From NCBI RefSeq assembly GCF_000018305.1, contig NC_009954.1, positions 120,001 through 152,000 on the forward strand: DNA of 32,000 bases. The letters are read 5' to 3'. The position numbers were made by a program, and so were the translations under genes. Positions 388 to 30,589 of the stretch are shown piece by piece. Source of the stretch: Caldivirga maquilingensis IC-167 (GTDB lineage: Archaea; Thermoproteota; Thermoprotei; Thermoproteales; Thermocladiaceae). Numbering within the stretch: the first letter of the stretch is position 1; every line of letters begins with the position of its first letter. The notes beneath the pieces were generated by a model, which did not search any database, was not told where the DNA came from, and saw only the letters and a list, made by a program, of their open reading frames with translations.

Positions 388-624
388 ATCCTGCCTTATT
401 CACATGGCTTATAAGCATTTAATCCTATGCTTTATCAATGAGTATCATGTTTAACTATCATTAGGTAAACCATGGCGAATAATTAAGGTAACCTACTATG
501 ATTAGTAGATAAAAGCCTATTACCCACATGCTAAGGCAATACATCATCAACTATCTCCCCCTTATAGCCCCTTTCTTGGAGTAATTTCCAACCTACTGTT
601 GAAGTCACTTAATTATGCTGTCAC

Positions 625-1677: not shown

Positions 1678-1893
1678 AAAGCTTAAGGAAGACTAAGTAT
1701 TTAAGTTTAAACATACATTGCCATAATGTTTATAGCTTCATTAATTCAATTAATCACATAATTCCGAATCTCAATGATTAATACTATTGGTGACTTTCAC
1801 TGAGCTCTATCTTCACGTAATCCTCATGGGTTAATAATAAATTAACTCACATCCCCACTAGCTAAACACGGGCTGTTAAGTTACTTAAACCCG

Positions 1894-4800
1894 TTAGCTT
1901 CCTGCATCATATTTAATTCTAATTGTTTTAATTTCAAATGGCTTTAATAATATGTTATTGAGTCCACTTAATGTTCCTACCTCATTCTTCTCAATAATGT
2001 CGGTTTCAGTAACTCCCTTCACCTTAACACCGTTAATGCCTATGCTCACATTAACCTGCCTCTCATATGGATTATAGAGCCTCAGTATTAGCTCATTCAT
2101 TGAGTCCTCAGCAACCTTAAGCGCAGTTAACATTGCCTCAGGTGGGTTAACGTGCATGAAGCTCCATTGGCCTACTCCCTGGTTCCGTGACTCACCAGTG
2201 ATTATCACGTACTTTAAACCATGGGTAATCTCGTAGGTTACCCTAGGTACCTCAGCGTCCTGGTAATTACCTAAATGCGGGTAAAGGTATATGCTTGTCT
2301 CCATTTCACCCACATCACTCCATGGGTTTGGGAAGGTTGGTGACCTTAGTAGACTTAACCCAATCCTGCCACCGCTCACACTGTAGCCATGTCTTGATGG
2401 TGCTATTACGGCTAGGCCCTTCACGTTATCTGAAACATCAACCCACCTGAGGGCTGGAACCTCAATCTTCCCCTCCCTTAATTGAACCTGCGGATTAGTC
2501 GACCTGCGCAGTGACCCGAAGGGTATGTCGAAGACCGCCTCCTCGGCATTAATTACTGTGTTAATCCAGGTCTTCACCAGTATGCCCTTATCCAACCAAT
2601 TAATACTGTACTTAACCTCAACAACCGGTGAACCCTTCCTTAAACACACCTCCTGGGTTATCCTCGACTTATTAAACTCCTTAATACTACTCACACATGA
2701 TATTAATGGACCAGTGATGGTTAATGACGGCTCCGACACGGTGCTTAACTCATAGCCCTCGTTCAATGAGTCTAGTGAGAAGCGCCATGCATCTGAAATA
2801 AGAGGCCTCTCAACATGGGCCATTAATTTAATGGGCTCCTTCAATACGTTGACGCCACTCTTCTTAATGATCAATGAATCCGCATCACCCTTATTATTTA
2901 AATTAACCTTAACGTATTCATTCTCAAGGGAGAAGCCGTCACCAGTCCTGGTGACTAAAACCCCATTACTCGGGTTTATGCACTTACCGTTTACTCCATA
3001 TGCACTAAACCCCATTGCTGGTGTATTCACGTACACGAACCTGTCTTCACCATTATCCTGGCACTCCAGGTTGACTTCAATGCTCCTCGGTATTTTAATA
3101 ACCCCGCTTCTACCCCATGGGAGTGGGTTAAACACGATTAATGAATCCCCTAAACCCAATTTCCTCCCCACCGCCGAAACGGCTTCACTCATTAATTCAC
3201 TGCTCCTTAGTAATAAGTTCCTTAACTCACTGTACGCTTCATCGTAAACCTCCTTGATTGCTGAGCCTGGTACTATGTCGTGGAATTGATTGAATAGTAG
3301 TCTCATCCACAGTTCATTGATTTCACTTAAACCATGGTCACCTGCACCCACTGCATACGCCATTGTTACTGATGCCTCAGCATCAGTGAGCTGTGCCTCT
3401 GATTTAGCTACTAATTCCTTAATCGGTAGGTTGGTGGTGTATGTTCCTATGAAGTTCTCTACGTGTATTTCACCACTCCATTTAGGTAACTTATCCTTAA
3501 CACTGCTTAATGCAGCCACGTAATCATCCTCCCTGAATTCAATAACCCTTGGGACGCTTGGTAGCTCATTGATTAATTCCCTGTACTCAATCATCTCCCT
3601 AGTGGGTCCACCGCCACCGTCACCGTAGCCGTAGGGGTATATTAACTGGGGTAGTGTATCCTTACCCCTGTACATTGACCATGCCTGGTAGGCGTTAAGT
3701 GGGGTGTGGGCATTATTGTAGTTAACTAGGATTACCTGCGTGGGTATTTCTGAACCATCGATACCAATCCAGGTGAAGGCGTGGAGTGGGAATTCTGTTA
3801 AGGAGTGGGTTATTATTCTCCATGATGAGAAGACCTCTATACCGCTCTTCCTCATTATTTGAGGTAGATTCGCCGAGAAGCCGAAGGTGTCCGGTAACCA
3901 ACCCACCTTAGCCATTCTCCCGAATCTGCTTAGGAAGTATCTTTGACCGTATAGGAATTGCCTAGCTAGGGATTCACCATCAATAATATTAGCATCACTC
4001 TCAATCCACATTCCACCCGCAATAATCCATTTACCTGATTCAATAAGCTTCTTAACCTCATTGAAGAGACCGGGGTCATTATCCTCAACCCACTTATAGT
4101 ACTGGGCTGAGCTTTGAAGGAAGCTAATACCATACTCCTTAATTAGGTTAACCATTGTTGAGAACGTCCTAATAACCTTCCTAATAGTCTCACCCCTAGG
4201 CCACAGCCACGCTGCATCAATGTGACTATGCCCAACAGCAACCAGTAAACCCTCCTTAGGGTACTTTTCACTCAACTTAATTAACCCTGAATTTAACTTA
4301 TCCTCAATTTCATGGATTGGTATTGAATCGGGGTCTATGGTTTTAGGTATGTCGCTTAGAAAACCCTTAACAACCCCTAGTCCATGTAACCCAACACCCA
4401 TTACATAGCTACCATCAGGTCTCCTGAGGTCCATTCTATTGAAGAATTGAGAGTACGGTGAGTCGTAAAGCATCATTAGGGTTAAGGTGACTTGACTCAA
4501 CGTTGGGTTAACCCTAATCCCCTTAGTCACGTTAATTAGTAATTCCTCAAGGTCAACTCTAAGCGGGTTATCCTTAGGTAAATGCTCAATGAAGTCTATG
4601 AGTGCCAGTAACCTTAATCCAAGCCTCATAATACTCCAATTAACCTCAATTAAGTAAGCGTAATCAAACCTGAAGTCCCAGGTATGCTGACCGAAGAGCG
4701 CCCTCGGTGTGGCGTTAACCTCAATAACGTTAACCCCAGGGTTAACTGGGAAGTAGGTGTGGGCCTCATCGTAACCCCAGGCCTCATTATTAATTCTAAT

Positions 4801-5040
4801 CAGTGCATTACCGGTGAGTAGAATCTTAATGAACCACCTATGCTTGGTTTCAGGTACAGTAACCCTTGTCCTAAACATGAGGTTATCATTAGGCCCTGCA
4901 CCGGTCCTGTACGGTAAATTAACGTTAACCCCATTATTCAGTAATTCCCAGTCATTAATTGAAGCATACCTACCCACTGAGGATGCCATTAACTCGAAGG
5001 CTAAGCCCTCAACACCCCCTAAATCAACTTCACGACTCAT
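1894..5040 (-). CDS. GH38-family alpha-mannosidase
   Basis: 1048-aa ORF with the GH38 catalytic-region signature VGHSHIDAAWLWP. The downstream blocks WIESDANIIDGESLARQFLYGQRYF, GWLPDTFGFS and QFHDIVPGS are also present. Length is typical of archaeal and bacterial GH38 enzymes. Confidence 0.9.
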   Translation of the reverse strand: MSREVDLGGVEGLAFELMASSVGRYASINDWELLNNGVNVNLPYRTGAGPNDNLMFRTRVTVPETKHRWFIKILLTGNALIRINNEAWGYDEAHTYFPVNPGVNVIEVNATPRALFGQHTWDFRFDYAYLIEVNWSIMRLGLRLLALIDFIEHLPKDNPLRVDLEELLINVTKGIRVNPTLSQVTLTLMMLYDSPYSQFFNRMDLRRPDGSYVMGVGLHGLGVVKGFLSDIPKTIDPDSIPIHEIEDKLNSGLIKLSEKYPKEGLLVAVGHSHIDAAWLWPRGETIRKVIRTFSTMVNLIKEYGISFLQSSAQYYKWVEDNDPGLFNEVKKLIESGKWIIAGGMWIESDANIIDGESLARQFLYGQRYFLSRFGRMAKVGWLPDTFGFSANLPQIMRKSGIEVFSSWRIITHSLTEFPLHAFTWIGIDGSEIPTQVILVNYNNAHTPLNAYQAWSMYRGKDTLPQLIYPYGYGDGGGGPTREMIEYRELINELPSVPRVIEFREDDYVAALSSVKDKLPKWSGEIHVENFIGTYTTNLPIKELVAKSEAQLTDAEASVTMAYAVGAGDHGLSEINELWMRLLFNQFHDIVPGSAIKEVYDEAYSELRNLLLRSSELMSEAVSAVGRKLGLGDSLIVFNPLPWGRSGVIKIPRSIEVNLECQDNGEDRFVYVNTPAMGFSAYGVNGKCINPSNGVLVTRTGDGFSLENEYVKVNLNNKGDADSLIIKKSGVNVLKEPIKLMAHVERPLISDAWRFSLDSLNEGYELSTVSEPSLTITGPLISCVSSIKEFNKSRITQEVCLRKGSPVVEVKYSINWLDKGILVKTWINTVINAEEAVFDIPFGSLRRSTNPQVQLREGKIEVPALRWVDVSDNVKGLAVIAPSRHGYSVSGGRIGLSLLRSPTFPNPWSDVGEMETSIYLYPHLGNYQDAEVPRVTYEITHGLKYVIITGESRNQGVGQWSFMHVNPPEAMLTALKVAEDSMNELILRLYNPYERQVNVSIGINGVKVKGVTETDIIEKNEVGTLSGLNNILLKPFEIKTIRIKYDAGS

Positions 5041-5106
5041 TTAAAACACTACCATTACTATTAATCCTTAACTTTTAACAATTACGTTTAAACCACCGTG
5101 GTTGAG

Positions 5107-5821: not shown

Positions 5822-5854
5822 GGCCACTAGGACTGGATTTGCGCCCACTACCCG
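5822..5854 (-). promoter_or_regulatory. 3' half of the 23S pre-rRNA processing stem (BHB-type)
   Basis: Sense CGGGUAGUGGGCGCAAAUCCAGUCCUAGUGGCC pairs with spacer sense GGUCACUAGGCUGGAGCGUUUACCCGCUACCCG (9082-9114). The pairing gives 11-bp and 10-bp helices around a short helix flanked by opposed bulges (UUUA and AAAU). Confidence 0.75.
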
Positions 5855-5855
5855 C

Positions 5856-9080
<3,225 letters not shown>

Positions 9081-9081
9081 A

Positions 9082-9145
9082 CGGGTAGCGGGTAAACGCT
9101 CCAGCCTAGTGACCGGAAAGAAGCCACCTTGAACTCCTAACCCCC
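9082..9145 (-). promoter_or_regulatory. 16S-23S spacer carrying two abutting processing-stem halves, with no spacer tRNA: the 23S 5' half (9082-9114) and the 16S 3' half (9115-9145)
   Basis: Spacer sense reads UUUUCGGGGGUUAGGAGUUCAAGGUGGCUUCUUUCC|GGUCACUAGGCUGGAGCGUUUACCCGCUACCCGU. The first part pairs with the leader (10856-10886) and the second with the trailer (5822-5854). The spacer is about 70 nt, too short and unsuitable for a tRNA. Confidence 0.75.
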
Positions 9146-9613
9146 GAAAAGGAGGTGATCCGGCCGCAGGTTCCCCTACGGCCACCTTGTTACGACTTCG
9201 CCCCCCTTGGGGACCCCCAACTCGACCCCCCAGTTACCCAGGGGGCCTCGTTAAGGATCCCCTCGGGTGGCGCGACGGGCGGTGTGTGCAAGGGGCAGGG
9301 ACGTATTCACCGCGCGTTGGTGACACGCGGTTACTAGGGATTCCACGTTCACGAGGGCGAGTTACAGCCCTCGATTCCTACTGGGGCGGGGTTTACGGGA
9401 TTGCCTCCCCCTTTCGGGGTCGGAACCCGCTGTCCCCGCCATTGCAGCTCGCGTGCAGCCCCGGGGTTTCGGGGCATACTGACCTGCCGTGGCCCCCTCC
9501 TTCCTCCGGCTTACGCCGGCAGTCCTCCCTGTGTGCCCCCCACCCCGAAGGGTAGGGTAGCAACAGGGAGCGGGGGTCGCGCTCGTTGCCAGACTTAACT
9601 GGACACCTCACGG

Positions 9614-9645
<32 letters not shown>

Positions 9646-9773
9646 AGCTCGTCCGGCAAGGTCGTTAGCCTGGCCTTCATCCTGCTGTCGCCCCGGGTGA
9701 GGTTTCCGGCGTTGACTCCAATTAAGCCGCAAGCTTCACCCCTTGTGGTGCCCCCCCGCCAATTCCTTTAAGT

Positions 9774-9913
9774 ATGCTGGGCGGCGGCCGTGCCGGGGTA
9801 AAGTGCCAGGGTAAAGTTGAGGATGTGAGTGCTAAAAAAGGAGGGTTCTGAGTTTACTGTACTTTGTTGGATATCTAGTTCCCGTCGGGGAACTCCGGCA
9901 CGGCCCGCCGCCT
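9774..9913 (-). other. 16S rRNA intron, 140 nt, with no ORF, inserted at about E. coli position 908
   Basis: It interrupts the universal GGCUGAAA|CUUAAAGGAAUUGGCGG. It is closed by a helix of about 17 bp (GGCGGCGGGCCGUGCCGG / CCGGCACGGCCGCCGCC) and has an AT-rich interior with a GUUCCC-CGAC-GGGAAC hairpin. The boundaries are ambiguous by 1 nt. Confidence 0.85.
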
Positions 9914-9922
9914 TTCAGCCTT

Positions 9923-9959
9923 CCGCCCCGGCCTGGGCTTGTGGCCCAGTGCCAGGTTT
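9923..9959 (-). other. 16S rRNA mini-intron, 37 nt, inserted at about E. coli position 901
   Basis: It interrupts AGUACGGCCGCAA|GGCUGAAA. Intron sense is ACCUGGCACUGGGCCACAAGCCCAGGCCGGGGCGGAA, with a CUGGGC-CACAA-GCCCAG hairpin. Removing it restores the universal sequence. The boundaries are ambiguous by 1-2 nt. Confidence 0.8.
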
Positions 9960-10855
9960 GCGGCCGTACTCCCCAGGCGGCGGGCTTAACGGCTTCCCTA
10001 CGCCACTGGGCGGGCACTAAGCCCACCCAACAGCTAGCCCGCATCGTTTACAGCTGGGACTACAGGGGTATCTAATCCCCTTTGCTCCCCCAGCTTTCGC
10101 CCCTCACCGTCGGGCGTGTTCCAGCCGAGCGCTTCCGCCACTGGTGGTCCTCCCGGGATTATCGGATTTCGCCCCTACCCCGGGAGTACCCTCGGCCTCT
10201 CCCACCCCCAAGCCCGGCAGTATCACCCCCGGCCCATGGGTTGAGCCCATGGATTTCAGGGGTGACTTACCGGGCCGGCTACGGGCGCTTTAGGCCCAGT
10301 AAACACCCCGACCACTCGCGGAGCTGGTATTACCGCGGCGGCTGACACCAGACTTGCCCCCCGCTTATTCCCCCAGCTACTTACACGGGGGAAAAGCCGC
10401 CCTCATCGGGCGGCACTCGGGGTGGCCCCGTCGCGGGTTACCGCATTGCGGAGTATTCGAGCCTGCTGCACCCCATAGGGCCTGGGCCCTTGTCTCAGTG
10501 CCCATCTCGGGGCTCCCGCTCTCACGGCCCCCACCCGTCTTCGGCCTGGCGGGCCGTTACCCCGCCAGCTACCATGATGGGCCGTAGCCCCATCCTCGGG
10601 CGAGCCGCGCCGGGTACCGGACGTGGCTCTTTTCGGGGAGGGGGCCTTCCAGCACCCTTCCCCTATGGGGGATTAGCCCCAGTTTCCCGGGGTTATCCCC
10701 CTCCCGAGGGTAGGTTGGCCACGTGTTACTGAGCCGTGCGCCGCACCCCAGCGGGTCCCTGGGGCGCTTGACTCGCATGGCTAAGCCCCACCCCGATAGC
10801 GGTCGGGTCCGGCAGGATCAACCGGTTTCAGGATGCGGCCGCAAGGCCGCTCCTG

Positions 10856-10886
10856 GGGGGTTAGGATTTGTTCGTGGCTTCTTTCC
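10856..10886 (-). promoter_or_regulatory. 5' half of the 16S pre-rRNA processing stem, with a BHB motif
   Basis: Leader sense GGAAAGAAGCCAC-GAAC-AAAU-CCUAACCCCC pairs with spacer GGGGGUUAGG-A-GUUC-AAG-GUGGCUUCUUUCC. This gives 13-bp and 10-bp perfect helices around a 4-bp helix (GAAC/GUUC) flanked by opposed bulges. Confidence 0.75.
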
Positions 10887-10889
10887 GTT

Positions 10890-10908
10890 TCCTGGTGGCT
10901 TGGGTTGG
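10890..10908 (-). promoter_or_regulatory. rRNA leader half of the 19-bp helix that pairs with the trailer (5803-5821)
   Basis: It is the exact reverse complement of 5803-5821. It is separated from the 16S stem half by only 3 nt. Confidence 0.6.
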
Positions 10909-11000
10909 ATCACCCCTCAGATTCGCCCCGGGTTTTCCCCGGTGGTGTTTCTGGGGGGCTCATGAATTTTACTGAGCGTGCAGTAGGTTCTTCAAAGGGC

Positions 11001-11016
11001 CCTTATTTAAGCTTTA
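11001..11016 (-). promoter_or_regulatory. Candidate rRNA operon promoter (TATA/box A-like)
   Basis: The minus strand reads GGGATAAAGCTTAAATAAGGGCCC. This is the only strong TATA-like element between the leader helix and the divergent moaC promoter. It would give a leader of about 150 nt. Confidence 0.45.
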
Positions 11017-11057
11017 TCCCTTGATTCCCTTTAACGCTTTTTGAGGGGCTGGGTAGT

Positions 11058-11068
11058 GTTTATATTTA
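11058..11068 (+). promoter_or_regulatory. TATA box for the MoaC gene (leaderless arrangement)
   Basis: gtttatattta is centred about 25 nt upstream of the ATG at 11088. Confidence 0.5.
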
Positions 11069-11087
11069 GTGCCTGGTTTTAAGCGTT

Positions 11088-12089
11088 ATGAGTGTTAGGA
11101 TGATTGATGTTTCGGGGAAGGAGAGTGTTTACAGGGAGGCTTGGGTTGAGGGTTTGATTAGGCTTAGGCCGGAGTTGGCTAAGGTTATTGGTGATTCATG
11201 GTTCATTGGCCTAGGTAACTTAGCCTCATCAATCTCAGTGGCCGCTGTGGTTGCTGTTAAGAGGGCTTGGGAGTTCATTCCCCTTCTTCACCCAATACCA
11301 ATAACTAATGTTGAGGTTGAGTTGACTCATGGTTACGATTACGTTGGGTTGAGGGTTGGGGCTAAGACAGTTGCCCAGACTGGGGTTGAGATGGATGCCT
11401 TATTCGGGGCCTTAACCGGCCTTGTGACTGCTTGGAATGTTATTAAGGCTAGGCACTGCGTCTGTGGGCCTAACGGTGACTGTAGGGTTGTTGAGGAGGG
11501 TGAGGTGGGTGGATTATCCTTCAGTGGTGTGGGTGAGATTAAGGGTATTGAGGGGGTGAGGGTTATTAGGAAGATTAAGGGTGGGTTAAGCAGTGGTAAT
11601 GGTACTGAGGGCACTGGGTCGATTAACGTTAATAATGCCCCATCCCTAGTAACACTCTTCGACGCCTCTAATGAACCCACGTACATCGGGGAGGCTGAGG
11701 CAAGCGGCTTCATTAAGCTTAAGCCAAGCACGGTGGAGTTGATTAGGAGTGGGGGTGTTGAGAAGGGTGATGTCTTAGCCACCGCCCAATTAGCAGCCAT
11801 ATCAATGGCTAAGAGGGCTTGGGAACTCCTACCCCTTATTCACCAGAATTACTTAACCCACGTTGCCGTTGGCGCTGAGGTTAAGGATAATGGGGTTTAC
11901 GTTAAGGTAACCACTAGGAATGTTTCAAGGACGGGTTCAGCCATGGAGGCGCTAATGGCCACTGGGGCAGCGTTACTGACTATTTGGGATATGGTTAAGA
12001 AGTATGAGAAGGATGAGAATGGACAATACCCTGACACTGAGGTAAGCTTCATTAGGCTTGAGAAGGCTGTTAAGACGCCTATGCAGTAG
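11088..12089 (+). CDS. moaC: Tandem-duplicated (two-domain) cyclic pyranopterin monophosphate synthase, MoaC-MoaC fusion
   Basis: The ORF is 333 aa, about twice the normal MoaC length. The N-half has MIDVSGKESVYREA...IRLRPE, IPLLHPIP and TGVEMDAL. The C-half has KLKPSTVELIRSGGVEKGDVLATAQLAAI, LPLIHQ, TGSAMEAL and TIWDMVKKYEKDENGQYP. A Gly/Ser/Asn-rich linker lies between them. Confidence 0.85.
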   Translation: MSVRMIDVSGKESVYREAWVEGLIRLRPELAKVIGDSWFIGLGNLASSISVAAVVAVKRAWEFIPLLHPIPITNVEVELTHGYDYVGLRVGAKTVAQTGVEMDALFGALTGLVTAWNVIKARHCVCGPNGDCRVVEEGEVGGLSFSGVGEIKGIEGVRVIRKIKGGLSSGNGTEGTGSINVNNAPSLVTLFDASNEPTYIGEAEASGFIKLKPSTVELIRSGGVEKGDVLATAQLAAISMAKRAWELLPLIHQNYLTHVAVGAEVKDNGVYVKVTTRNVSRTGSAMEALMATGAALLTIWDMVKKYEKDENGQYPDTEVSFIRLEKAVKTPMQ

Positions 12090-19312: not shown

Positions 19313-20050
19313 TTACTTAACCTTACTTATCGGTAGTTTTCCACTTCTTAAATCATTAATTAGCTGGGTAAGCTCATTAATAGCTGACTCAAGTATTACC
19401 TTACCCTTCTCTACACTGGCTCTTGAGGGATAACCCTGAACAGCCTTAGTGTACTCTAGGGCGTAGGCGTCCTTACCATACACCCTGAACTTAACCTCAA
19501 CCCACTCATCAGCTGACCCATCCCTGGGAATCCACTTAACCAAGTGCGGGTAAGCCGCCCAAACCTCACTGGTCTCATCCTCTGCTGCATGACCCTCCGG
19601 GGTCTCTAGGACCTTCCTCCTAGCCTCCCTACCTAAGTCAATCCACCAGTTAACCAGGATTATGACTAGGTTAGTCTCCTTAGCTACATCCTTAGAGGCC
19701 ATGCTTAAAGCATCAACATTACCACCATGCCCATTAACCACCACTAGGTACTTCACCCCATTCCTAACAACCTCCCTGAATATTTCCCTATAAAGCATGT
19801 AAAGCACTTCATTGCTTATTGATATAGTGCCAGGGAACTTATCGAGGACATAAGTATTACCGTACCAAACAGTGGGGAGTAGTAGTGCATTCGTCCTCCT
19901 AGCAGCTTCCTCAGCTATGTAGGTTGCCATTAACGCATCAGTACCTAATGGTAAATGCGGCCCATGGGCCTCAACAATACCAGTGGGTAATATTGCTATT
20001 GTCTTATCAACCTTCTCGAAGTCAGGCCAGGTTAACTCCCACCAACGCAT
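19313..20050 (-). CDS. Creatininase-family amidohydrolase
   Basis: Family blocks are ILPTGIVEAHGPHLPLGTD, VVVNGHGGN and GHAAEDETS. The ORF is an intact 245 aa. Confidence 0.85.
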   Translation of the reverse strand: MRWWELTWPDFEKVDKTIAILPTGIVEAHGPHLPLGTDALMATYIAEEAARRTNALLLPTVWYGNTYVLDKFPGTISISNEVLYMLYREIFREVVRNGVKYLVVVNGHGGNVDALSMASKDVAKETNLVIILVNWWIDLGREARRKVLETPEGHAAEDETSEVWAAYPHLVKWIPRDGSADEWVEVKFRVYGKDAYALEYTKAVQGYPSRASVEKGKVILESAINELTQLINDLRSGKLPISKVK

Positions 20051-22094: not shown

Positions 22095-23792
22095 ATGGCA
22101 GGAAAAATGCCCAATAAATGGGTAAGCCGCGTCAAGGCTCTGTTAGTGATTATACTGGTTATGGCAGTGGCTTCAATACTCATGTCACTACTCATTACTG
22201 TTAAGGCCCAACCCGCACCAATACAGTCAGTCAGGGTTAGCACTGGCGTGTTATCCTACTACGAATCACTACCATCCACTGCGCCGGGCATTGTAATTAG
22301 GGTTTACTTAATCAATGGTTCAACAATAAAACCCGCCAACGCCTTCGTAAGCATCTACGCAAACCTACCCAACGGAATCATACCCATGATTCACGCGTAC
22401 GGTAGCGTGGTAACACTACCCTTCAGTGATAATGCGTGGTCCTTCGTAATCAATAAGTGGCTGGGCACGGGCATGCCGGTGGGTAGCTACAATACATCAC
22501 TCCTAGTCTTCACAACATACGTGAGTGGTAATAAGTCCTGGATCGTACCCATGCTCATCCCATACAACGTTGGTTGGGTCCTAACCTCCAGGGGTGTTGG
22601 GATTACCACGGTTGGTTCGGCCACGCCCAGGTTCGTCGTGGCTGCCATATACATCAACGTGACTGGGATCAAGCCATTCAGTGTTGTGAGGGTGAGTGCC
22701 GTGGGTAAGCAAGACCCACAGATCCTCGGTACCTACGATGGCTACGTACTCTATAACTGCTCAGTAAGCGGGCCGCAACCAGAGATCCACGTATCATCAC
22801 CCTATGAGTTTATACCAGAGAGTACCTGCCTGGGTATAAATGGTTCATTACCACTGGTCTGGGTCACATGGAGTAATGGCGTTATACATAGGGATAGTAA
22901 CTTAGAGTTCTTTTTAGATGTTGGCTATATTGGTGTGATGCCCTGGGAGGCGGTGGCCACGGAATACGGTGAAGTAGGCCAGTCCTACAGTGCTAACGAG
23001 ACATGGGCACTGGCATTTCCAATATTCATGTCCTCCGTGAGGGGCCCTGGATCGTTTTACTGGGCATACAATGGTACGTGGGCGATTGTTAATTATAGTG
23101 TATGGTACGTGGACCCAATGACTGGCGTTACGGAGTATCTAGGTTCGGTGACGGTTTCCGAAGTCCTCTATGTACCCAGTCAGGAACCGGTGGAAGACGG
23201 TATTGATTATGGTAATGGGCCCATCAGCGTGTTGTACTATGGTGCAACCACCATATTTAATAAACTAATTGGTTACTCAGTATTGAATACATCATCAGTA
23301 ATTTACTACATAAACTTTATACCTAATCCATTGACCGGGGTTGAGGAGCTCTACGAGTGTAATGGCCCAGTCTCCATTGCATATATGGTGGGATCGAAGA
23401 CGGGGGCATTGTACTCCATTATCCTTGGCGGGGCCGAATCTGCCGTGAACACGGCCCAATTTGGCACGGGCCTTATGGCATATGTTGTGTCGCCACCATA
23501 TAATGCTATAGCAAATATTATATATGGTGCAATAGCAAATGAAATAACAGATATTATATTGACGGAGCTTGAAATAGCAGGTATCATACTACCACCATCG
23601 AACACTACCTTCATTCAAACATTTCTCGAGACGACTGGTATCAGTAACGGCACGCGCCTTTACATATCCGTCGTGATGACATCCAAACCCTTCGGGATAC
23701 CAACCTACGGCTTCATACTCAATACAACGAATTACTACGGAAATCCGCAGGAGTATACCTGCAGTTACGGTAAGGTGATGGTTATAGGTTAG
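22095..23792 (+). CDS. Large N-terminally anchored or secreted protein with many N-glycosylation sequons; function unknown
   Basis: 565-aa ORF with a basic N-terminus followed by a hydrophobic helix (RVKALLVIILVMAVASILMSLLI). It has at least 12 N-x-S/T sequons and a beta-rich, Tyr/Val/Asn-rich composition. I recognise no family motif. Confidence 0.65.
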   Translation: MAGKMPNKWVSRVKALLVIILVMAVASILMSLLITVKAQPAPIQSVRVSTGVLSYYESLPSTAPGIVIRVYLINGSTIKPANAFVSIYANLPNGIIPMIHAYGSVVTLPFSDNAWSFVINKWLGTGMPVGSYNTSLLVFTTYVSGNKSWIVPMLIPYNVGWVLTSRGVGITTVGSATPRFVVAAIYINVTGIKPFSVVRVSAVGKQDPQILGTYDGYVLYNCSVSGPQPEIHVSSPYEFIPESTCLGINGSLPLVWVTWSNGVIHRDSNLEFFLDVGYIGVMPWEAVATEYGEVGQSYSANETWALAFPIFMSSVRGPGSFYWAYNGTWAIVNYSVWYVDPMTGVTEYLGSVTVSEVLYVPSQEPVEDGIDYGNGPISVLYYGATTIFNKLIGYSVLNTSSVIYYINFIPNPLTGVEELYECNGPVSIAYMVGSKTGALYSIILGGAESAVNTAQFGTGLMAYVVSPPYNAIANIIYGAIANEITDIILTELEIAGIILPPSNTTFIQTFLETTGISNGTRLYISVVMTSKPFGIPTYGFILNTTNYYGNPQEYTCSYGKVMVIG

Positions 23793-25603: not shown

Positions 25604-25845
25604 TTATTCGTACACATGTATAAATCGGTACTTATATTTAAGAAGTCGCACAACGCTTATTGATTTTAATTTCACAATGTAGTAATGCATTGACTCCCTG
25701 GCTTCCTCAACTATGTAGGTTACTATTAATGCATTAGTACTGAGGAGTGGGTGTGGCTCATGGACCTCAATTATACTTGTTGGTAGTAGGGCTATGATTT
25801 TATTGACCTTCTTAAACTCAGCTAGGTTAACTCCCACCAACGCAT
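25604..25845 (-). pseudogene. Decayed duplicate of the 5' end (promoter plus about 80 codons) of the creatininase-family gene
   Basis: The ATG at rc 25843-25845 gives MRWWELT, identical to 19313-20050, and then an in-frame TAG (rc of 25822-25824). A 1-nt deletion follows. After the frameshift the translation still aligns: AEFKKVNKIIALLPTSIIEVHEPHPLLSTNALIVTYIVEEA against PDFEKVDKTIAILPTGIVEAHGPHLPLGTDALMATYIAEEA. An internal deletion comes next. Promoter-region similarity extends to about 25890. Confidence 0.8.
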
Positions 25846-26436: not shown

Positions 26437-27207
26437 AAGCTTAATACTAGTTACCTTACCTTAACTTCTTTAAATTTGACCCACATTATTTAGGATTCAC
26501 TATTCACAAACATCATCTAGTTTACCGTTACTGGGTCAATCGAACACAAGACTAATGCCCTGTACCTCAAGTAAGGTATCGTTATACGATTGAGGACTCC
26601 TTAAAAGAATGCAACGCATCAATGTGCTACGTGTATCACGGTTAAGTGCGGAAAACCAAGAACACCATAATAGAAATGGGTGGTGGATCTTGTTCTTTAC
26701 GATGTTTTAAATTGATTTTCATTAATTACATGCTACATATCTCTGGATCCCATGTAAATGAGAATAATTGGATCGAAGGCCCAATTCATAATACACTGCT
26801 GAATAAATGAGACAGTATGAGAAACACCTACCGGCAATAAAGTAATAATAATAATAAAGGCAGTAAATCAATAAATCAACCCCTAGGACGAGGAGACCAG
26901 TAGGTATCTGCCCTTAATGGCCTTTTCCTAGGAATTATCCACAGTCCTATGAGCGATGAAGACACAATACTCCTCTGTCACGTAGTTTTTGTGAAGAATA
27001 AAAATTAAGAATTATTATAATTTAAAAACATAGTTAAAAATCATACTAATGTATTTAACTATAGCAATAAAAATAAAAGCGAACCAATCTATTACTCTCT
27101 AAGAAAATAGTTTAACCGTAAAATTTAAATAAAATAAGGTAAGGGCCTTTTTAAGGTACAATGTATTAAGCAGTGCAAATGTGCCGGCTCCATAATGATG
27201 GCTTAGT

Positions 27208-28002
27208 ATGAGTGCATTTAAAATCTTCCTTCTTATTTCCATACCCCTCATTTCATTATCCCTAATCCTAATATACGGCACGGCATTGATTGCACCCTCC
27301 ATAGTAAGGATCTCCACGCCTCAGAGCATGCCTTATGCCCAAGCTAGTAATGTCATTGTTAATGCCAGTGGGGTTTATGTGATCGTGAGTGTGGTAAATA
27401 ATGGTTTTAACTTCACGCCAACGAGCGGCTGGGTATTAATTGCGAACACTGGTGAGTTGGGTAATTTAACCATAATAAATGGAACACTGGCTGTGTCCAG
27501 GATGGGGCTGGAGCCTGGTTACGTGGTAATGAGCAGTGCAGGTGTGAGAGGGGTGGTCAAGGGTTACCTAGATGGGGCGCCTGCTGAGATAGCCTTCTTC
27601 AGCATAGTCCCAATTCACGTGGCCAATACGGTGGCCTTATCAAGCGTGAATTATAGTAATTGCGTACTAGTGCTTATCTTTAATGTATCATCAATAGTCC
27701 CCGTTAGGTTGTGGGGCATTGTCAACATGAGCCTATACACAGTGGTAGGTCATGAGTATGTCCTTAACACCATGAATGTGGTGTTTAATGAGAGTGTTTA
27801 TGTACCCGCTGGTGATCATACCGTTAACATAACAATCCCCATAATGCCATTCTATGACGTGGACAGGTTTATCTACGTGTATGATTGCAACCTTAAGGGT
27901 GATGTGGCGTATGCGCTCTACTTACCAATAAGCATTACTTATTATTACCCCACCGTGAACCAAACCGTGAACACCGTTATCTTCAAGTCCTTCACCGGGT
28001 GA
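27208..28002 (+). CDS. Envelope operon gene 1: N-terminally anchored extracellular beta-rich protein with many N-glycosylation sequons
   Basis: 264-aa ORF with an N-terminal hydrophobic helix (FKIFLLISIPLISLSLILIYGTALI). It has about 10 N-x-S/T sequons. Its stop TGA (28000-28002) overlaps the GTG of the next ORF (GTGA). Confidence 0.7.
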   Translation: MSAFKIFLLISIPLISLSLILIYGTALIAPSIVRISTPQSMPYAQASNVIVNASGVYVIVSVVNNGFNFTPTSGWVLIANTGELGNLTIINGTLAVSRMGLEPGYVVMSSAGVRGVVKGYLDGAPAEIAFFSIVPIHVANTVALSSVNYSNCVLVLIFNVSSIVPVRLWGIVNMSLYTVVGHEYVLNTMNVVFNESVYVPAGDHTVNITIPIMPFYDVDRFIYVYDCNLKGDVAYALYLPISITYYYPTVNQTVNTVIFKSFTG

Positions 28003-28778
28003 CTTCCATGAGACTCGAGGTCATGATTCAAGTGGTTCTGGCATTAGCCTTCGTGGTCTCCTGGTTCCTGCTGCCGATTTATGGCATTACAGGCCCTGGG
28101 TTAGCCATGGTTCTAACACCCGTGGGTTACGTGGTGGATTTCCTAGGCCTGAGATACCTCGTGGTTCCACCAACAATATTCGCAATATGGCTCTTTGCCC
28201 TAACGTCATCACTAATACCCATTGTTTGGAGGAGCACTAGATACCCACTCTACCTCTCACTACTCCTCGCTGTTCTCTCGATGACCATGCTTACTGACAC
28301 AATTCTCTTCCAGTGGCGATACATGACGGTGAGGGGCTACGTAATACAACCAACACCCACGGGTTACATCTATGTTCAACTACACCACACGCCAAGCCTG
28401 AGTCTGCCGTTTTACATACTGGTGATTTACCTAGTACTAACGCTTGTCAATACCGTGACCAGGGCTAAATGGTTGAGGTTTAGGGAGTGGAGTATTGTTG
28501 AGGTTTACCAAACAAGGGGCACTATGACTGCCATTAAGGAGTCCCTAAGGAGGCTTGGGATACCTTATGAGGAGTTTGATGATGGTATTAGGGTTGGTGA
28601 CTTAATTATTAAGGAGGTTCATGGCATGATAACAATAAGCAGGGTAGGCAGAAACCCCATGGCAACCGATGAGATTCAAGGGTTAAGTCCTGAGGAGGCT
28701 ATTGCCGTAGTGATAACACACGCAGTTCAGTATGCATTTAAGACTGGGTCCAGGGTGGTTGAGTATGAAGGTGAGTAA
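27999..28778 (+). CDS. Envelope operon gene 2: polytopic membrane protein (about 5 TM) with a soluble C-terminal domain of about 95 aa
   Basis: 259-aa ORF. The start is either the GTG at 27999 (4-nt overlap with gene 1) or the ATG at 28008. Hydrophobic helices run through about aa 160. A charged soluble tail then follows (RFREWSIVEVYQTRGTMTAIKESLRRLGIPYEEFDDG...). Confidence 0.7.
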   Translation: MTSMRLEVMIQVVLALAFVVSWFLLPIYGITGPGLAMVLTPVGYVVDFLGLRYLVVPPTIFAIWLFALTSSLIPIVWRSTRYPLYLSLLLAVLSMTMLTDTILFQWRYMTVRGYVIQPTPTGYIYVQLHHTPSLSLPFYILVIYLVLTLVNTVTRAKWLRFREWSIVEVYQTRGTMTAIKESLRRLGIPYEEFDDGIRVGDLIIKEVHGMITISRVGRNPMATDEIQGLSPEEAIAVVITHAVQYAFKTGSRVVEYEGE

Positions 28779-30192
28779 ACGGGTAGTAGCCATGGCAATA
28801 CTACTGGCCTTAGTCATGGTGCCTTCATCATTAGTCATCGTTAGTGATGTAATAAATACGTACAGGGGCAATATGAGGATTAGCACCACACAGCCGATTA
28901 AGGTAACGCCAGGCTCCTTCCTTTACCAAACACCATGCGGTCAACTCCTAATACAAAGCCAGTGGGCGCCAACTGGCACGGGCTTCAGCGGCTCCATGAA
29001 CCTACCCCTAATAACATTGAGCACAACTAATGGCTACAGGTTGATGATGACGCCAATACCCATGTTCTCACTCACCACATCAACAAGCGGCGTGTTAACC
29101 CTGGGAATAAACACCAACCCCTACATAGCCTCAGCATACCTAAACATAGGCGGAACCACACAGCAGGTATACCCAGGAACCGGCACATGGAGCCTAACCA
29201 CGGGCTCCTACACAGCAAACCTAACGGGACTCACACTAACCACCCCAGTCACGGGCACGGTAACACTAAGCGGTAATTACAACTTCACACCAACCACAGG
29301 CGTCACGTTCACGTACACCTTCACGGAAACCCTAAACCTAAAGCAGCCATCCTTCAACATAATGAACCTGTTAAACGGTTACCAGAACTGGTACGTGCCG
29401 CACGTGTACCAGGGCGATTATCAAGGCACCCGCACTTATCAATGGCCGGTTTATTACCCACTCAGCGCAGCACCACAGTACTGGGCACCAATATCCACGG
29501 GCATTAACCAACCAGTCCTAATGATGGTGCAGGCTCGGCAATGGTCCGCCGGCGCCATGTTCTGGAGTGAAGCCTACACCAGTGGTCAGTCAGTCACAAT
29601 AACAATACTGGGCACCTACTCCAGTGGCACATCAAACCCAGCGGATGGCTATGAATTCTACTTCTTCATAGTTCCAAATGGATGGGCCATATCCTCTTCT
29701 TCCAATTACTCAATACCTTACTCAGTATCCTCATCACAAATTGGTACTCAGGTATCACCTGTGCAGGGCGAGGTTATCCTACCCGTCTCTGTATATAATA
29801 CGTGGTACGTAGTGGTTCAGTGGGACCCGTACTGGCAGTACGGCTATACTGCGAGCGGTTATACTGGGCAGTGGAATGTCTGGGCTGTAAGCTATACCCC
29901 CTCCCGGCTAAGGATTAACTCGGTGAATGGTGTGGGCAGTGGTTACTTTAAGCCAAACCCAGGGGATTACATATGCGTTAGCGTCACGTATAATGCAACT
30001 ACGAACACCGTGAGCGGCATTGCCGTGGACCTAAACACGGGCGCCTACGCCATACTACCTCCCATAAACCTAGCTAGCTTTTCGAATTTTAAGCCGCCAA
30101 ACAGTGGTACCTACGTATTTGGCGTAGCTGGCAACACGGGAGGCGCCTATGCCAATTGGGCAATACTAGCCGTTAATTACACGGCGCGTTAG
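28765..30192 (+). CDS. Envelope operon gene 3: N-anchored Thr/Tyr-rich extracellular protein with a C-terminal legume-lectin-like (ConA-like jelly-roll) domain
   Basis: I prefer the ATG at 28765 (MKVSKRVVAMAILLALVMV...), which overlaps the end of gene 2 by 14 nt. The middle is Thr-rich and beta-rich. The C-terminal half carries four blocks in the L-type-lectin order: NPADGYEFYFFIVP, YVVVQWDPYW, ICVSVTYNATTNTVSGIAVDL and TYVFGVAGNTGGAYANWAIL. Confidence 0.7.
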   Translation: MKVSKRVVAMAILLALVMVPSSLVIVSDVINTYRGNMRISTTQPIKVTPGSFLYQTPCGQLLIQSQWAPTGTGFSGSMNLPLITLSTTNGYRLMMTPIPMFSLTTSTSGVLTLGINTNPYIASAYLNIGGTTQQVYPGTGTWSLTTGSYTANLTGLTLTTPVTGTVTLSGNYNFTPTTGVTFTYTFTETLNLKQPSFNIMNLLNGYQNWYVPHVYQGDYQGTRTYQWPVYYPLSAAPQYWAPISTGINQPVLMMVQARQWSAGAMFWSEAYTSGQSVTITILGTYSSGTSNPADGYEFYFFIVPNGWAISSSSNYSIPYSVSSSQIGTQVSPVQGEVILPVSVYNTWYVVVQWDPYWQYGYTASGYTGQWNVWAVSYTPSRLRINSVNGVGSGYFKPNPGDYICVSVTYNATTNTVSGIAVDLNTGAYAILPPINLASFSNFKPPNSGTYVFGVAGNTGGAYANWAILAVNYTAR

Positions 30193-30589
30193 GTACTCAG
30201 CAGATCCACTGTACATTACGGGTTAGTTAACCCTCAGCAGGCTTATCAACAGAAGTAATTACGTTAAGAACTCATTATTTATTCATACCTCGCTTTTCAG
30301 GCTAATTTCACACGCATTTTTCTACATCGTCATATTAGCCGTGGCAGCAGTACCCTCAACCATTGAGGATGAGGAAGTAAGGGGCTGCAGGTTCATGAAA
30401 CTAGGGATGGAGATTAAGGTTGAAAATAATACTTGCTAAACCTAGGTTTGGTTGACTATGAACTTTGGGCCACACTGCCTGCTGGGTCTTATGCTCCTAG
30501 GAATGCCTCAAGGACCAGGTAGCATTATGGTTATTGCAAGCATGTAACTAAATTCAGTACACCTGTGTTACCATGTTGTTTACTGGCCT

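What the first reader, a model, noticed from the sequence alone, without database searches (positions are those of the whole stretch)
27208..30192. Translationally coupled three-gene operon of orphan envelope proteins: candidate undescribed cell-surface system
Three co-oriented ORFs are packed with overlapping stop and start codons (GTGA at 27999-28002, and a 14-nt overlap at 28765-28778). This implies one transcript and coupled translation.

- Gene 1 is an N-anchored, sequon-dense beta-rich ectodomain protein.
- Gene 2 is a 5-TM protein with a charged cytoplasmic tail domain of about 95 aa.
- Gene 3 is an N-anchored Thr/Tyr-rich protein ending in a lectin-like jelly-roll.

I recognise no pilin, S-layer (SlaA/SlaB-type), ATPase, peptidase or transporter signature. 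The architecture suggests a dedicated glycan-recognising surface complex rather than isolated hypotheticals. It pairs two extracellular glycoproteins with a membrane-embedded partner that has a cytoplasmic domain.

The operon sits behind an unusually long AT-rich non-coding region and between gene fragments (creatininase, GluRS), which is an accessory context. By eye it uses more C/G-ending codons than the housekeeping block.
Basis: partly seen in the sequence, partly recalled or inferred. Interest (0 to 1): 0.72.

Follow-up and report, generated by a model that had tools for sequence, protein, structure and literature searches.

The report
Truncated archaeal thread-pilus operon
These three genes are not an unknown system: they are the conserved accessory genes of the archaeal "thread" pilus (the Sulfolobus Saci_0406-type filament), here missing the main subunit gene, and one of them looks like a sugar-binding adhesin built on a thread-subunit domain.

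Summary
The three packed, co-oriented ORFs are real. The window is Caldivirga maquilingensis. In 10 other genomic loci and about 60 hot-spring metagenome contigs the same trio follows a fourth gene, g0. The g0 family profile matches the solved thread-filament subunit of Sulfolobus acidocaldarius, Saci_0406 (PDB 7PNB), at E = 8e-34. The conserved unit is therefore g0-g1-g2-g3.

In this window g0 has been lost. Only its last 13 codons (27157-27195) and a degraded stretch survive, inside the "long AT-rich non-coding region".

- g3 has a signal peptide, the thread donor-strand motif (DVxxxYxG) and a thread-subunit-like domain (hhalign 98.3%). Its C-terminal domain has a legume-lectin fold (Foldseek E about 2e-7). 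I read it as a candidate thread cap or adhesin.
- g1 is a membrane-anchored protein with two tandem beta-sandwich domains.
- g2 is a polytopic membrane protein with a cytoplasmic domain.
- By synteny in Metallosphaera, g1 corresponds to Saci_0405 and g2 to Saci_0407/0408.

The claims "orphan", "no pilin" and "undescribed system" do not. Thread assembly and anchoring are still unknown, so the trio remains moderately interesting.

The parts
26886..26948 (-). Probable decayed remnant of the pyridine-nucleotide-disulphide oxidoreductase gene that lies upstream of the cassette in Vulcanisaeta thermophila
   Evidence: blastn gives 79.6% over 54 nt, E = 4e-7, against L004 7130-7183. tblastn gives 52% over 21 aa with an in-frame stop. 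The evidence is weak.
27061..27195 (+). Remnant of g0, the thread major-subunit gene (Saci_0406 family). 27157-27195 reads YNVLSSANVPAP*; 27061-27156 is degraded and contains stop codons.
   Evidence: The g0 C-terminus in homologues is ...NFGYNVISSTSVPAP*. Nucleotide homology with V. thermophila starts exactly at 27157. The degraded stretch was found by tblastn.
27208..28002 (+). g1: membrane-anchored protein with an N-terminal TM helix (aa 3-32), two tandem beta-sandwich ectodomains and 10 N-glycosylation sequons. Positional equivalent of Saci_0405.
   Evidence: AF2 pLDDT is 88.9. Foldseek returns only generic tandem Ig/FN3-like matches. It follows g0 in 59 of 61 metagenome loci and in Metallosphaera.
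27997..28002 (+). GGGTGA: a Shine-Dalgarno-like site for g2, overlapping the g1 stop codon TGA
   Evidence: 16S 3' end GGATCACCTCC.
28008..28778 (+). g2: polytopic membrane protein. It has 4-5 TM segments (aa 1-155), a conserved loop RGYxIxPTPTGYIYV, and a C-terminal domain of about 100 aa with no sequons that is presumed cytoplasmic. Equivalent of Saci_0407/0408.
   Evidence: No Pfam or PDB sequence match. The Metallosphaera homologue scores hhalign 99.9% and lies upstream of the thread subunit.
28765..28845 (+). g3 signal peptide (aa 1-27), with predicted cleavage at ...IVS|DV
   Evidence: It aligns with the Saci_0406 signal peptide, which is cleaved at LVA|DV.
28846..29349 (+). g3 N-terminal part: donor-strand motif DVINTYRG followed by a thread-subunit-like beta-sandwich (aa 28-195)
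   Evidence: hhalign of the g3 family against the g0 family gives 98.3%, E = 1.8e-14, over 145 columns. The AF2 model is confident over aa 45-195, and the donor strand has low pLDDT.
29362..30192 (+). g3 C-terminal L-type (legume) lectin-like domain (aa 200-475) and stop codon
   Evidence: Foldseek against PDB returns legume lectins, ERGIC-53 and VIP36 at E = 2e-7 to 4e-6, TMt 0.5-0.6. Pfam Lectin_L-type_dom matches 4 of 20 homologues and PA14 matches 9 of 20, mostly weak hits (best E 0.006 and 6e-6), with no hit for the window protein.
30194..30250 (.). 57-nt block conserved with the region just downstream of g3 in V. thermophila, but inverted
   Evidence: blastn 82.5%, E = 2e-10.

Best explanation
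The three ORFs are genes 2-4 of a conserved four-gene cassette for the archaeal "thread". This is the thin, Sec-dependent, type-IV-pilus-independent filament whose subunits are joined by donor-strand complementation (Saci_0406, PDB 7PNB). The cassette order is g0 (major subunit), g1, g2, g3.

In this Caldivirga maquilingensis locus g0 has been lost.

**Proposed mechanism (inferred)**
- g3 is exported by Sec and cleaved before Asp28.
- Its N-terminal strand DVxxxYxG inserts into the acceptor groove of a thread subunit. That places a thread-like domain and a lectin-like domain at a filament end, as a cap or adhesin that binds glycans.
- g1 (membrane-anchored tandem beta-sandwich) and g2 (polytopic membrane protein with a cytoplasmic domain) form the membrane-side assembly or anchoring platform.
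- The genes are translated from one transcript. The junctions are tight: a 5-nt spacer with a Shine-Dalgarno-like site, then a 14-nt overlap.

**Shown:** homology, synteny, domain architecture, fold and the loss of g0.
**Inferred:** the roles of g1, g2 and g3, and whether the trio is still expressed or useful here.
For: - **Organism.** g3 is 100% identical to a C. maquilingensis protein.
- **Synteny.** g1-g2-g3 are syntenic in V. thermophila, three other Vulcanisaeta, Caldivirga MU80 (two copies), Caldivirga UBA161, two Tardisphaera and a Thermoprotei MAG. A gene of about 200 aa (g0) precedes them every time.
- **Identity of g0.** The g0 profile against PDB gives 7pnb_A, the Saci_0406 filament, at E = 8e-34 over the full length.
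- **Metagenome loci.** In 80 loci found with the thread subunit, wherever the contig is long enough, g1 follows in 59 of 61, g2 in 31 of 32, the g3 N-domain in 18 of 19 and the lectin domain in 13 of 15.
- **g3 N-domain.** It is homologous to g0 at hhalign 98.3%, with the shared motif A|DV[VI][FY]xYxG.
- **g3 C-domain.** It has a legume-lectin fold and weak Pfam lectin and PA14 hits in homologues.
- **g0 remnant.**
- **Selection.** dN/dS against V. thermophila is 0.16, 0.19 and 0.28.
- **Junctions.** The geometry is conserved and Shine-Dalgarno-like sites are present.
- **Sulfolobales.** Metallosphaera has the order g2-g0-g1. This fits the published layout saci_0408/0407 (own promoter, fused in some strains) then saci_0406, saci_0405.
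Against: - The defining major subunit gene is absent from this locus. I could not search the rest of the C. maquilingensis genome, so a functional thread in this organism is not shown.
- The locus is surrounded by gene fragments, and the native promoter upstream of g0 is probably gone.
- g1 shows no detectable similarity to the thread subunit. Its model gives only generic Ig-like matches. The published "cap" idea for its presumed counterpart Saci_0405 is therefore neither confirmed nor explained.
- The equivalences with Saci_0405, 0407 and 0408 rest on synteny in Metallosphaera plus the text of the paper, not on S. acidocaldarius sequences.
- Sugar binding by g3 is not shown. The window protein has no Pfam lectin hit, and I did not check the metal- and sugar-binding residues.
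Confidence: 0.8

Rival explanations
1. The trio is a non-functional relic in this genome. After the thread subunit gene and its promoter were lost, g1-g3 are no longer expressed or useful and simply have not decayed yet. This rival concerns present function. It is compatible with the thread-cassette identity.
For: - g0 is reduced to 13 intact codons plus degraded sequence.
- Both ancestral neighbours appear decayed: a Pyr_redox remnant at 26886-26948 and an inverted 57-nt block with a weak MFS remnant downstream.
- Creatininase and GluRS fragments flank the locus.
- Normally g1 starts only about 15 nt after g0, so it has no promoter of its own.
Against: - All three ORFs are intact and match V. 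thermophila in length (264 vs 265, 256 vs 256, 475 vs 475 aa).
- dN/dS is 0.16-0.28, although this averages over both lineages and cannot detect recent relaxation.
- Neighbours decayed while the trio stayed intact, which is what selection on the trio would produce.
- A second g0 elsewhere in the genome is not excluded. Caldivirga MU80 has two cassettes.
Confidence: 0.35
2. One reading: an autonomous, previously undescribed glycan-recognising surface complex of three proteins, unrelated to any filament.
For: - No Pfam, NCBIfam or PDB sequence hit for the three window proteins.
- The lectin-like fold of g3.
- In this genome the trio stands alone, without a filament subunit.
- A stand-alone g3 homologue exists in a Sulfolobaceae MAG (L019).
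Against: - The link to the thread subunit gene is near-universal.
- g3 carries a thread-subunit-like domain and donor strand.
- The g0 remnant shows that this locus once had the subunit too.
Confidence: 0.07
3. The trio are accessory or pilin-like components of a type IV pilus-like system driven by a T2SSE-family ATPase and a T2SSF-family platform protein.
For: A T2SSE + T2SSF gene pair lies 0.2-6.5 kb upstream of the cassette in Vulcanisaeta JCM 14467, V. distributa, Vulcanisaeta JCM 16159, Caldivirga MU80 and two metagenome contigs.
Against: - No such pair lies within 10 kb upstream in V. thermophila, the two Tardisphaera, L012, L039, L050 or L094, and no homologue of either gene was found anywhere in this window.
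- The spacing to the cassette varies.
- g0 and g3 have Sec-type signal peptides cleaved after the hydrophobic core, not class III signals.
- Threads are made in a pibD deletion mutant.
Confidence: 0.05

Closest known systems
Thread filament gene cluster of Sulfolobus acidocaldarius (saci_0404-0409; subunit Saci_0406, PDB 7PNB/8RZL; Gaines et al. 2022, PMC9715654)
   Same: - The gene that heads the cassette in all relatives is a full-length homologue of Saci_0406 (E = 8e-34).
- Same Sec signal peptide and DV-x-x-Y-x-G donor strand.
- g1 and g2 occupy the positions of Saci_0405 and Saci_0407/0408 in a Sulfolobales genome.
- The accessory genes are of unknown function in both.
   Different: - Here the subunit gene itself is deleted.
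- The gene order differs: g0-g1-g2-g3 in Thermoproteales, Tardisphaera and the metagenome loci, against g2-g0-g1 in Metallosphaera.
- The papers I read do not mention a lectin-bearing thread-like protein. They propose Saci_0405 as the cap, whereas here g3, not g1, carries the donor-strand motif and the thread-like domain.
Two-domain tip adhesins of bacterial chaperone-usher pili (FimH, PapG)
   Same: One pilin-type domain that joins the fibre by strand complementation, fused to a lectin-type domain, and encoded in the same operon as the major subunit. This is an analogy of design.
   Different: - No homology.
- The domain order is reversed: lectin is C-terminal here and N-terminal in FimH.
- g3 has a donor strand. 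FimH has none and only accepts one.
- No beta-barrel usher. No protein shown to be a PapD-like chaperone: g1 has two Ig-like domains, but only generic matches appear in the top 50.
Legume (L-type) lectins, and ERGIC-53/VIP36
   Same: The fold of g3 residues about 200-475 (Foldseek prob 1.00, E = 2e-7, TMt 0.5-0.6). A sequence reminiscent of the lectin ADG...F motif is present (ADGYEFYFF; the resemblance is from my own knowledge).
   Different: Sequence identity is 8-16%. The window protein has no Pfam hit. Conservation of the Ca/Mn and sugar-binding residues was not established.
TasA/TapA fibres of Bacillus and archaeal bundling pili (AbpA), cannulae (CanA)
   Same: Sec-exported beta-sandwich subunits that polymerise by donor-strand exchange without an outer-membrane usher. 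An accessory protein is proposed to nucleate the fibre.
   Different: Different protein families. The thread papers treat threads as a separate class. I found no sequence or profile link from g1-g3 to these families.

Membership tests
Archaeal thread (Saci_0406-type) gene cassette | A Saci_0406-family major subunit gene in the locus | tested here: not met
   No g0 HMM hit anywhere in the window. Only a 13-codon C-terminal remnant at 27157-27195 plus degraded sequence. The feature is met in all 10 syntenic genomic loci and in the metagenome loci.
Archaeal thread (Saci_0406-type) gene cassette | Accessory genes orthologous to those that accompany the subunit gene elsewhere, in conserved order | tested here: met
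   tblastn and HMM mapping show g1, g2 and g3 after g0 in 59 of 61, 31 of 32 and 18 of 19 loci with room. Nucleotide homology with the V. thermophila cassette runs from 27157 to 30185.
Archaeal thread (Saci_0406-type) gene cassette | Equivalence with saci_0405 and saci_0407/0408 of the type organism | tested here: inconclusive
   S. acidocaldarius sequences for these genes were not available. In Metallosphaera yellowstonensis the order g2-g0-g1 matches the published description of 0408/0407 and 0406/0405.
Thread subunit-like protein (applies to g3) | Sec/SPI signal peptide followed by the conserved N-terminal donor strand D-V-[IV]-x-x-Y-x-G | tested here: met
   g3 reads ...LVIVS|DVINTYRG. The family consensus is A|DVVFxYxG, against Saci_0406 LVA|DVIYYYQG. 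Cleavage itself was not tested.
Thread subunit-like protein (applies to g3) | Head domain homologous to Saci_0406 | tested here: met
   hhalign of the g3 family against the g0 family gives 98.3%, E = 1.8e-14, over g3 residues 1-165. HMM cross-hits occur in both directions.
Thread subunit-like protein (applies to g1, the presumed Saci_0405 equivalent) | Thread-like fold with an N-terminal donor strand | tested here: not met
   hhalign of g1 against g0 gives 0.7%. The g1 N-terminus is a 30-residue hydrophobic helix. 7PNB is not among the top 50 Foldseek matches.
Thread filament | Polymerisation by donor-strand complementation, an Asn-to-N-terminus isopeptide link, independence from PibD | not testable with these tools
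   Needs EM, biochemistry and genetics. At the sequence level only, no class III signal peptide is seen in g1 or g3.
L-type (legume) lectin domain | Lectin beta-sandwich fold | tested here: met
   AF2 model pLDDT 81. The top 41 Foldseek PDB matches are legume lectins, E = 2e-7 to 3e-6.
L-type (legume) lectin domain | Pfam family membership at the curated threshold | tested here: not met
   No Pfam hit for the window protein. Lectin_L-type_dom matches 4 of 20 homologues (best E = 0.006) and PA14 matches 9 of 20 (best 6e-6).
L-type (legume) lectin domain | Conserved metal- and sugar-binding residues, and carbohydrate binding | not tested
   No residue-level structural alignment was available. 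The ADG motif was noted by eye only.
Bacterial chaperone-usher pilus system | Outer-membrane usher beta-barrel and PapD-like chaperone | tested here: not met
   No Pfam or NCBIfam hits. g2 is helical-polytopic. g1 gives only generic tandem Ig-like matches.
Type IV pilus-like system | Class III signal peptides; an adjacent T2SSE ATPase and T2SSF platform | tested here: not met
   No homologue of the Vulcanisaeta T2SSE/T2SSF genes in the window (tblastn). Such a pair lies near only 7 of the loci. The only NCBIfam line is ComGB at E = 0.98.

The most novel reading that the evidence does not exclude
g1, g2 and g3 are the missing thread biogenesis and adhesion machinery.
- g3 is a lectin-bearing cap that donates its N-terminal strand to the first thread subunit. 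Its extra, highly conserved strand (GVTFxYxFxET, aa 179-189) may fill its own groove, so that g3 nucleates or terminates the fibre and gives it sugar specificity.
- g1 and g2 form a cytoplasmic-membrane platform, with no usher, that chaperones and anchors the fibre.

This would be an archaeal counterpart of the chaperone-usher pathway built from unrelated parts. In C. maquilingensis the trio would persist without its cognate subunit, either serving a subunit encoded elsewhere or displaying g3 alone.
Probability: 0.35. Interest if true: 0.7.

Novelty: new member of a known kind. Interest (0 to 1): 0.5.

Why it matters
Threads are abundant adhesive filaments of Sulfolobus. A 2026 review still states that how they are assembled and anchored is unknown.

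The same three accessory genes travel with the subunit gene from Sulfolobales to Thermoproteales and Tardisphaera. One of them is a thread-subunit-like protein fused to a lectin-like domain. This gives concrete candidates for the cap or adhesin and for the membrane platform, and each is testable by deletion, localisation and glycan binding.

It also questions the published assignment of Saci_0405 as the cap. If Saci_0405 is the g1 equivalent, as the Metallosphaera synteny suggests, it lacks both the donor-strand motif and detectable similarity to the thread subunit, and g3 has both.

For this window the practical result is an annotation: three "hypothetical proteins" and a "non-coding" stretch become a truncated thread operon.

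Tried and rejected
- **Sequence libraries.** Pfam, NCBIfam and PDB sequence searches with the three window proteins returned nothing usable.
- **Word-indexed homologue search.** For g1 and g2 it found only V. thermophila and one contig. That would have supported "orphan" and was a sensitivity limit. tblastn and HMM searches on fetched loci, plus the full HMMER scan, found the families.
- **Type IV pilus idea.** I raised it from the T2SSE/T2SSF neighbours in Vulcanisaeta and dropped it after checking all loci and the signal peptides.
- **g1 as a thread-like cap.** No support.
- **Viral or mobile origin of the trio.** PHROGs gave nothing for g1, g2 or g0. Only the g3 lectin-like domain matched one family, so I rejected this origin.
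- **Context look-ups.** Exact-protein look-ups for Acidilobus sp. 7A and Acidianus sulfidivorans g3 found no record.
- **Structure job.** I redid it with proteins from the representative search.


Full report
**1. Observation**

The window is from Caldivirga maquilingensis. g3 is 100% identical to a hypothetical protein of that species, on a contig of 2,077,567 bp.

Three co-oriented ORFs exist as described. The g2/g3 junction is a 14-nt overlap: ATG at 28765 and TAA at 28776-28778.

However, every g2 homologue begins MR.EV, which corresponds to ATG 28008. NCBI also annotates a 256-aa product.

The GGGTGA at 27997-28002 is complementary to the 3' end of the 16S rRNA encoded in this same window...GGATCACCTCC. 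It is best read as a Shine-Dalgarno-like site fused to the g1 stop codon, five bases before the g2 start. A similar GGTGGT precedes the g3 start.

The tight packing is conserved in related loci:

| Junction | Typical geometry | Count |
|---|---|---|
| g0-g1 | spacer, median 15 nt | n = 64 |
| g1-g2 | ATGA overlap | 28 of 38 |
| g2-g3 | 14-nt overlap | 17 of 28 |

Other points checked:
g1 has one N-terminal helix and 10 sequons. g2 has four strong hydrophobic segments plus one weak one and no sequons. g3 has one N-terminal hydrophobic segment.
- GC3 of the trio (0.52, 0.52, 0.57) is at the upper end of the window's range (0.40-0.56), but not outside it in any striking way.
- The flanking creatininase fragment is a partial copy of the full gene at 19313-20050. 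The GluRS/GlnRS C-terminal fragments are also real.

**2. The genes are not orphans**

g3 has more than 160 homologues in Vulcanisaeta, Acidilobus, Thermoproteus, Thermocladium, Pyrobaculum, Acidianus and Tardisphaera.

The word-indexed search found almost nothing for g1 and g2. tblastn on loci fetched around g3 homologues gave a different picture. g1-g2-g3 are syntenic in V. thermophila (82%, 79% and 81% identity). They are also syntenic, at 32-48% identity, in three other Vulcanisaeta, two cassettes of Caldivirga sp. MU80, Caldivirga UBA161, two Tardisphaera genomes and a Thermoprotei MAG.

A full HMMER scan of 1.8 billion representatives found 15 clusters for g1. They include Marsarchaeota, "TACK" MAGs and Metallosphaera yellowstonensis.

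**3. The fourth gene identifies the system**

In all ten syntenic loci a gene of 191-210 aa (g0) sits directly upstream of g1. A profile of these proteins matches PDB 7pnb_A and 8rzl_C, the thread filament of Sulfolobus acidocaldarius (Saci_0406). The match has E = 8e-34 and covers the full length, including the signal peptide and the N-terminal strand DVIYYYQG.

Threads are thin filaments that do not depend on the type IV prepilin peptidase. Their subunits are exported by Sec and cleaved at LVA|DV. They are joined by donor-strand complementation and an apparent isopeptide link.

A metagenome scan seeded with the subunit alignment returned 80 loci. Wherever the contig extends far enough:

| Feature after g0 | Loci |
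|---|---|
| g1 | 59 of 61 |
| g2 | 31 of 32 |
| g3 N-terminal domain | 18 of 19 |
| g3 lectin domain | 13 of 15 |

The conserved unit is therefore g0-g1-g2-g3.

**4. What happened in this window**

No g0 is present. Immediately upstream of g1, however, 27157-27195 reads YNVLSSANVPAP-stop, which is the conserved C-terminus of g0 (...NFGYNVISSTSVPAP).

Nucleotide homology with the V. thermophila cassette (83%) begins exactly at 27157 and ends at the g3 stop codon. About 100 nt further upstream still translate, with stop codons, into a degraded g0 tail. A 54-nt stretch at 26896-26949 resembles the oxidoreductase gene that is the upstream neighbour in V. thermophila. Downstream, a 57-nt block is shared but inverted.

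The "unusually long AT-rich non-coding region" is therefore the wreck of g0 and its neighbour.

g1-g3 are intact and have the same lengths as in V. thermophila. Their dN/dS values are 0.16, 0.19 and 0.28. Whether they are still expressed, or whether another g0 exists elsewhere in the genome, could not be tested.

**5. The three proteins**

*g3.* The AF2 model has pLDDT 81 and pTM 0.76. It shows a signal helix, a poorly modelled N-terminal strand, a beta-sandwich (aa 45-195) and a second beta-sandwich (aa 200-475).
- The g3 family aligns to the thread-subunit family over residues 1-165 with hhalign probability 98.3% and E = 1.8e-14. It shares the cleavage-site and donor-strand motif A|DV[VI][FY]xYxG.
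- The C-terminal domain matches legume lectins, ERGIC-53 and VIP36 (Foldseek E = 2e-7 to 4e-6, TMt 0.5-0.6).
- Among 20 family members, 9 give PA14 hits and 4 give weak L-type lectin Pfam hits. The window protein gives none.
- A cassette variant has a g3 of only 183-191 aa without the lectin domain (L043, L046-L050). This suggests that the thread-like part is the core and the lectin an added module.

*g1.* The AF2 model has pLDDT 88.9. It has a 30-residue TM helix and two tandem beta-sandwich domains. Foldseek gives only generic tandem Ig/FN3-like matches. There is no profile similarity to the thread subunit.

*g2.* It has no match in Pfam or in PDB sequences. Its most conserved feature is a loop, RGYxIxPTPTGYIYV, between hydrophobic segments 3 and 4.

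**6. Relation to the published cluster**

In Metallosphaera yellowstonensis the order is:
- g2 (282 aa, hhalign 99.9%);
- the thread subunit (206 aa, 35% identical to Saci_0406);
- g1 (256 aa);
- then IS elements.

[quoted passage not shown] They also state that saci_0406 and saci_0405 are co-transcribed.

By position, g2 corresponds to Saci_0408/0407 and g1 to Saci_0405, the "putative cap". This is an inference from synteny, because I had no S. acidocaldarius sequences for these genes. The counterpart of g3 (saci_0404, or the "variable-length" saci_0409) is unresolved.

The papers I read do not mention a lectin-bearing thread-like protein. They call the functions of the accessory genes elusive. 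A 2026 review says assembly and anchoring remain unknown.

**7. Mechanism**

Shown:
- membership of the cassette;
- the domain architecture;
- the donor-strand motif on g3;
- the lectin fold;
- the conserved operon geometry;
- the loss of g0.

Inferred:
- g3 joins a filament end through its N-terminal strand and presents the lectin-like domain as a cap or adhesin. In design, not descent, this resembles FimH and PapG.
- g1 and g2 form the membrane-side platform that chaperones or anchors the fibre.

Speculative: the very conserved extra strand of g3 (G179, Y184, F186, E188, T189) fills its own groove.

**8. Rivals**

- *Relic.* A relic status in this genome is quite possible and does not conflict with the identification.
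- *Autonomous lectin complex.* This is contradicted by the synteny and by the thread-like domain of g3.
- *Type IV pilus connection.* This was suggested by T2SSE/T2SSF genes near the cassette in seven loci. It is unlikely because the pair is absent within 10 kb upstream in seven other loci, the spacing varies, the signal peptides are of the Sec type, and threads form without PibD.

**9. Verdict**

This is a truncated member of a known system, with accessory proteins that are conserved but uncharacterised. Interest is moderate. The window itself holds a damaged copy. The cassette-level picture, however, gives testable candidates for an open question.

Noticed in passing
window 29362-30189; L103 (AFV3, NC_010155.1) 1039-5088: The lectin-like domain of g3 is homologous to the C-terminal end of the largest protein of Acidianus filamentous viruses (Betalipothrixvirus AFV3 ORF1349 and relatives). 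tblastn gives 26-31% identity over about 75% of the domain, E = 7e-5 to 3e-4. PHROG phrog_17320 matches at E = 3e-12. The same adhesion module may serve cell filaments and virus attachment.
   Followed up: partly
L005/L007 2344-5635; L015 3699-7067; L016 2605-5883; L008 5-1740; L041 and L082 about 280-3555: A T2SSE-type ATPase with one or two T2SSF-type membrane proteins, a type IV pilus-like module, lies 0.2-6.5 kb upstream of thread cassettes in Vulcanisaeta, Caldivirga MU80 and two metagenome contigs. It is absent within 10 kb upstream in seven other loci and has no homologue in this window.
   Followed up: partly
L043, L046, L047, L048, L050 (for example L043 1560-6105): A variant cassette. 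It has an extra two-domain g0-like gene (about 336 aa) upstream, then g0, g1 and g2. Its g3 is only 183-191 aa with no lectin domain. A further 142-aa g0-like gene lies downstream.
   Followed up: no
L101 (Metallosphaera yellowstonensis JH597770.1) 6423-11770: The Sulfolobales cassette is permuted (g2-g0-g1). Transposase genes (DDE_Tnp_2, Transposase_mut) follow directly, and no g3 lies within 8 kb.
   Followed up: partly
L015 8430-11401; L016 7399-10310; L014 781-4332; L008 7817-8473: In several draft genomes (V. distributa JCM 11216, Vulcanisaeta JCM 16159, Caldivirga UBA161, Caldivirga MU80) cassette genes are split into two to four ORF pieces. These are either real frameshifts or assembly errors.
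   Followed up: no
window 5848-10828 (-): There is a 16S-23S rRNA operon. The matched spans (1679 nt for SSU, 3241 nt for LSU) exceed the Rfam model lengths (1478 and 2987), which suggests insertions or introns. The ORFs listed inside it (6448-9555) are spurious.
   Followed up: no
window 25604-25840 (-) and 19313-20050 (-): The 78-aa creatininase fragment next to the locus is a partial second copy of the full creatininase gene 5.5 kb away.
   Followed up: partly
window 27208-27387: The NCBI product for g1 is 205 aa and starts at residue 60 of the ORF. Alignment with 18 homologues supports the 264-aa form, which includes the TM helix.
   Followed up: yes
window 30194-30406: A 57-nt block downstream of g3 matches the g3-MFS intergenic region of V. 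thermophila in inverted orientation. A weak match to the MFS transporter C-terminus follows (44% over 27 aa, E = 0.4), on the opposite strand to the gene in V. thermophila. This suggests a small inversion and decay of the downstream neighbour.
   Followed up: partly
window 22095-23792 (+): A 565-aa ORF with no Pfam match lies upstream, next to a 148-aa ORF with weak coiled-coil-type Pfam hits (best HSBP1, E = 2e-6) and a 191-aa membrane-like ORF. None of them is conserved next to thread cassettes elsewhere.
   Followed up: no
L019 9527-10921 (Sulfolobaceae MAG): A full two-domain g3 homologue with the donor-strand motif DVLYFYKG stands alone, with no g0, g1 or g2 within 9 kb.
   Followed up: partly
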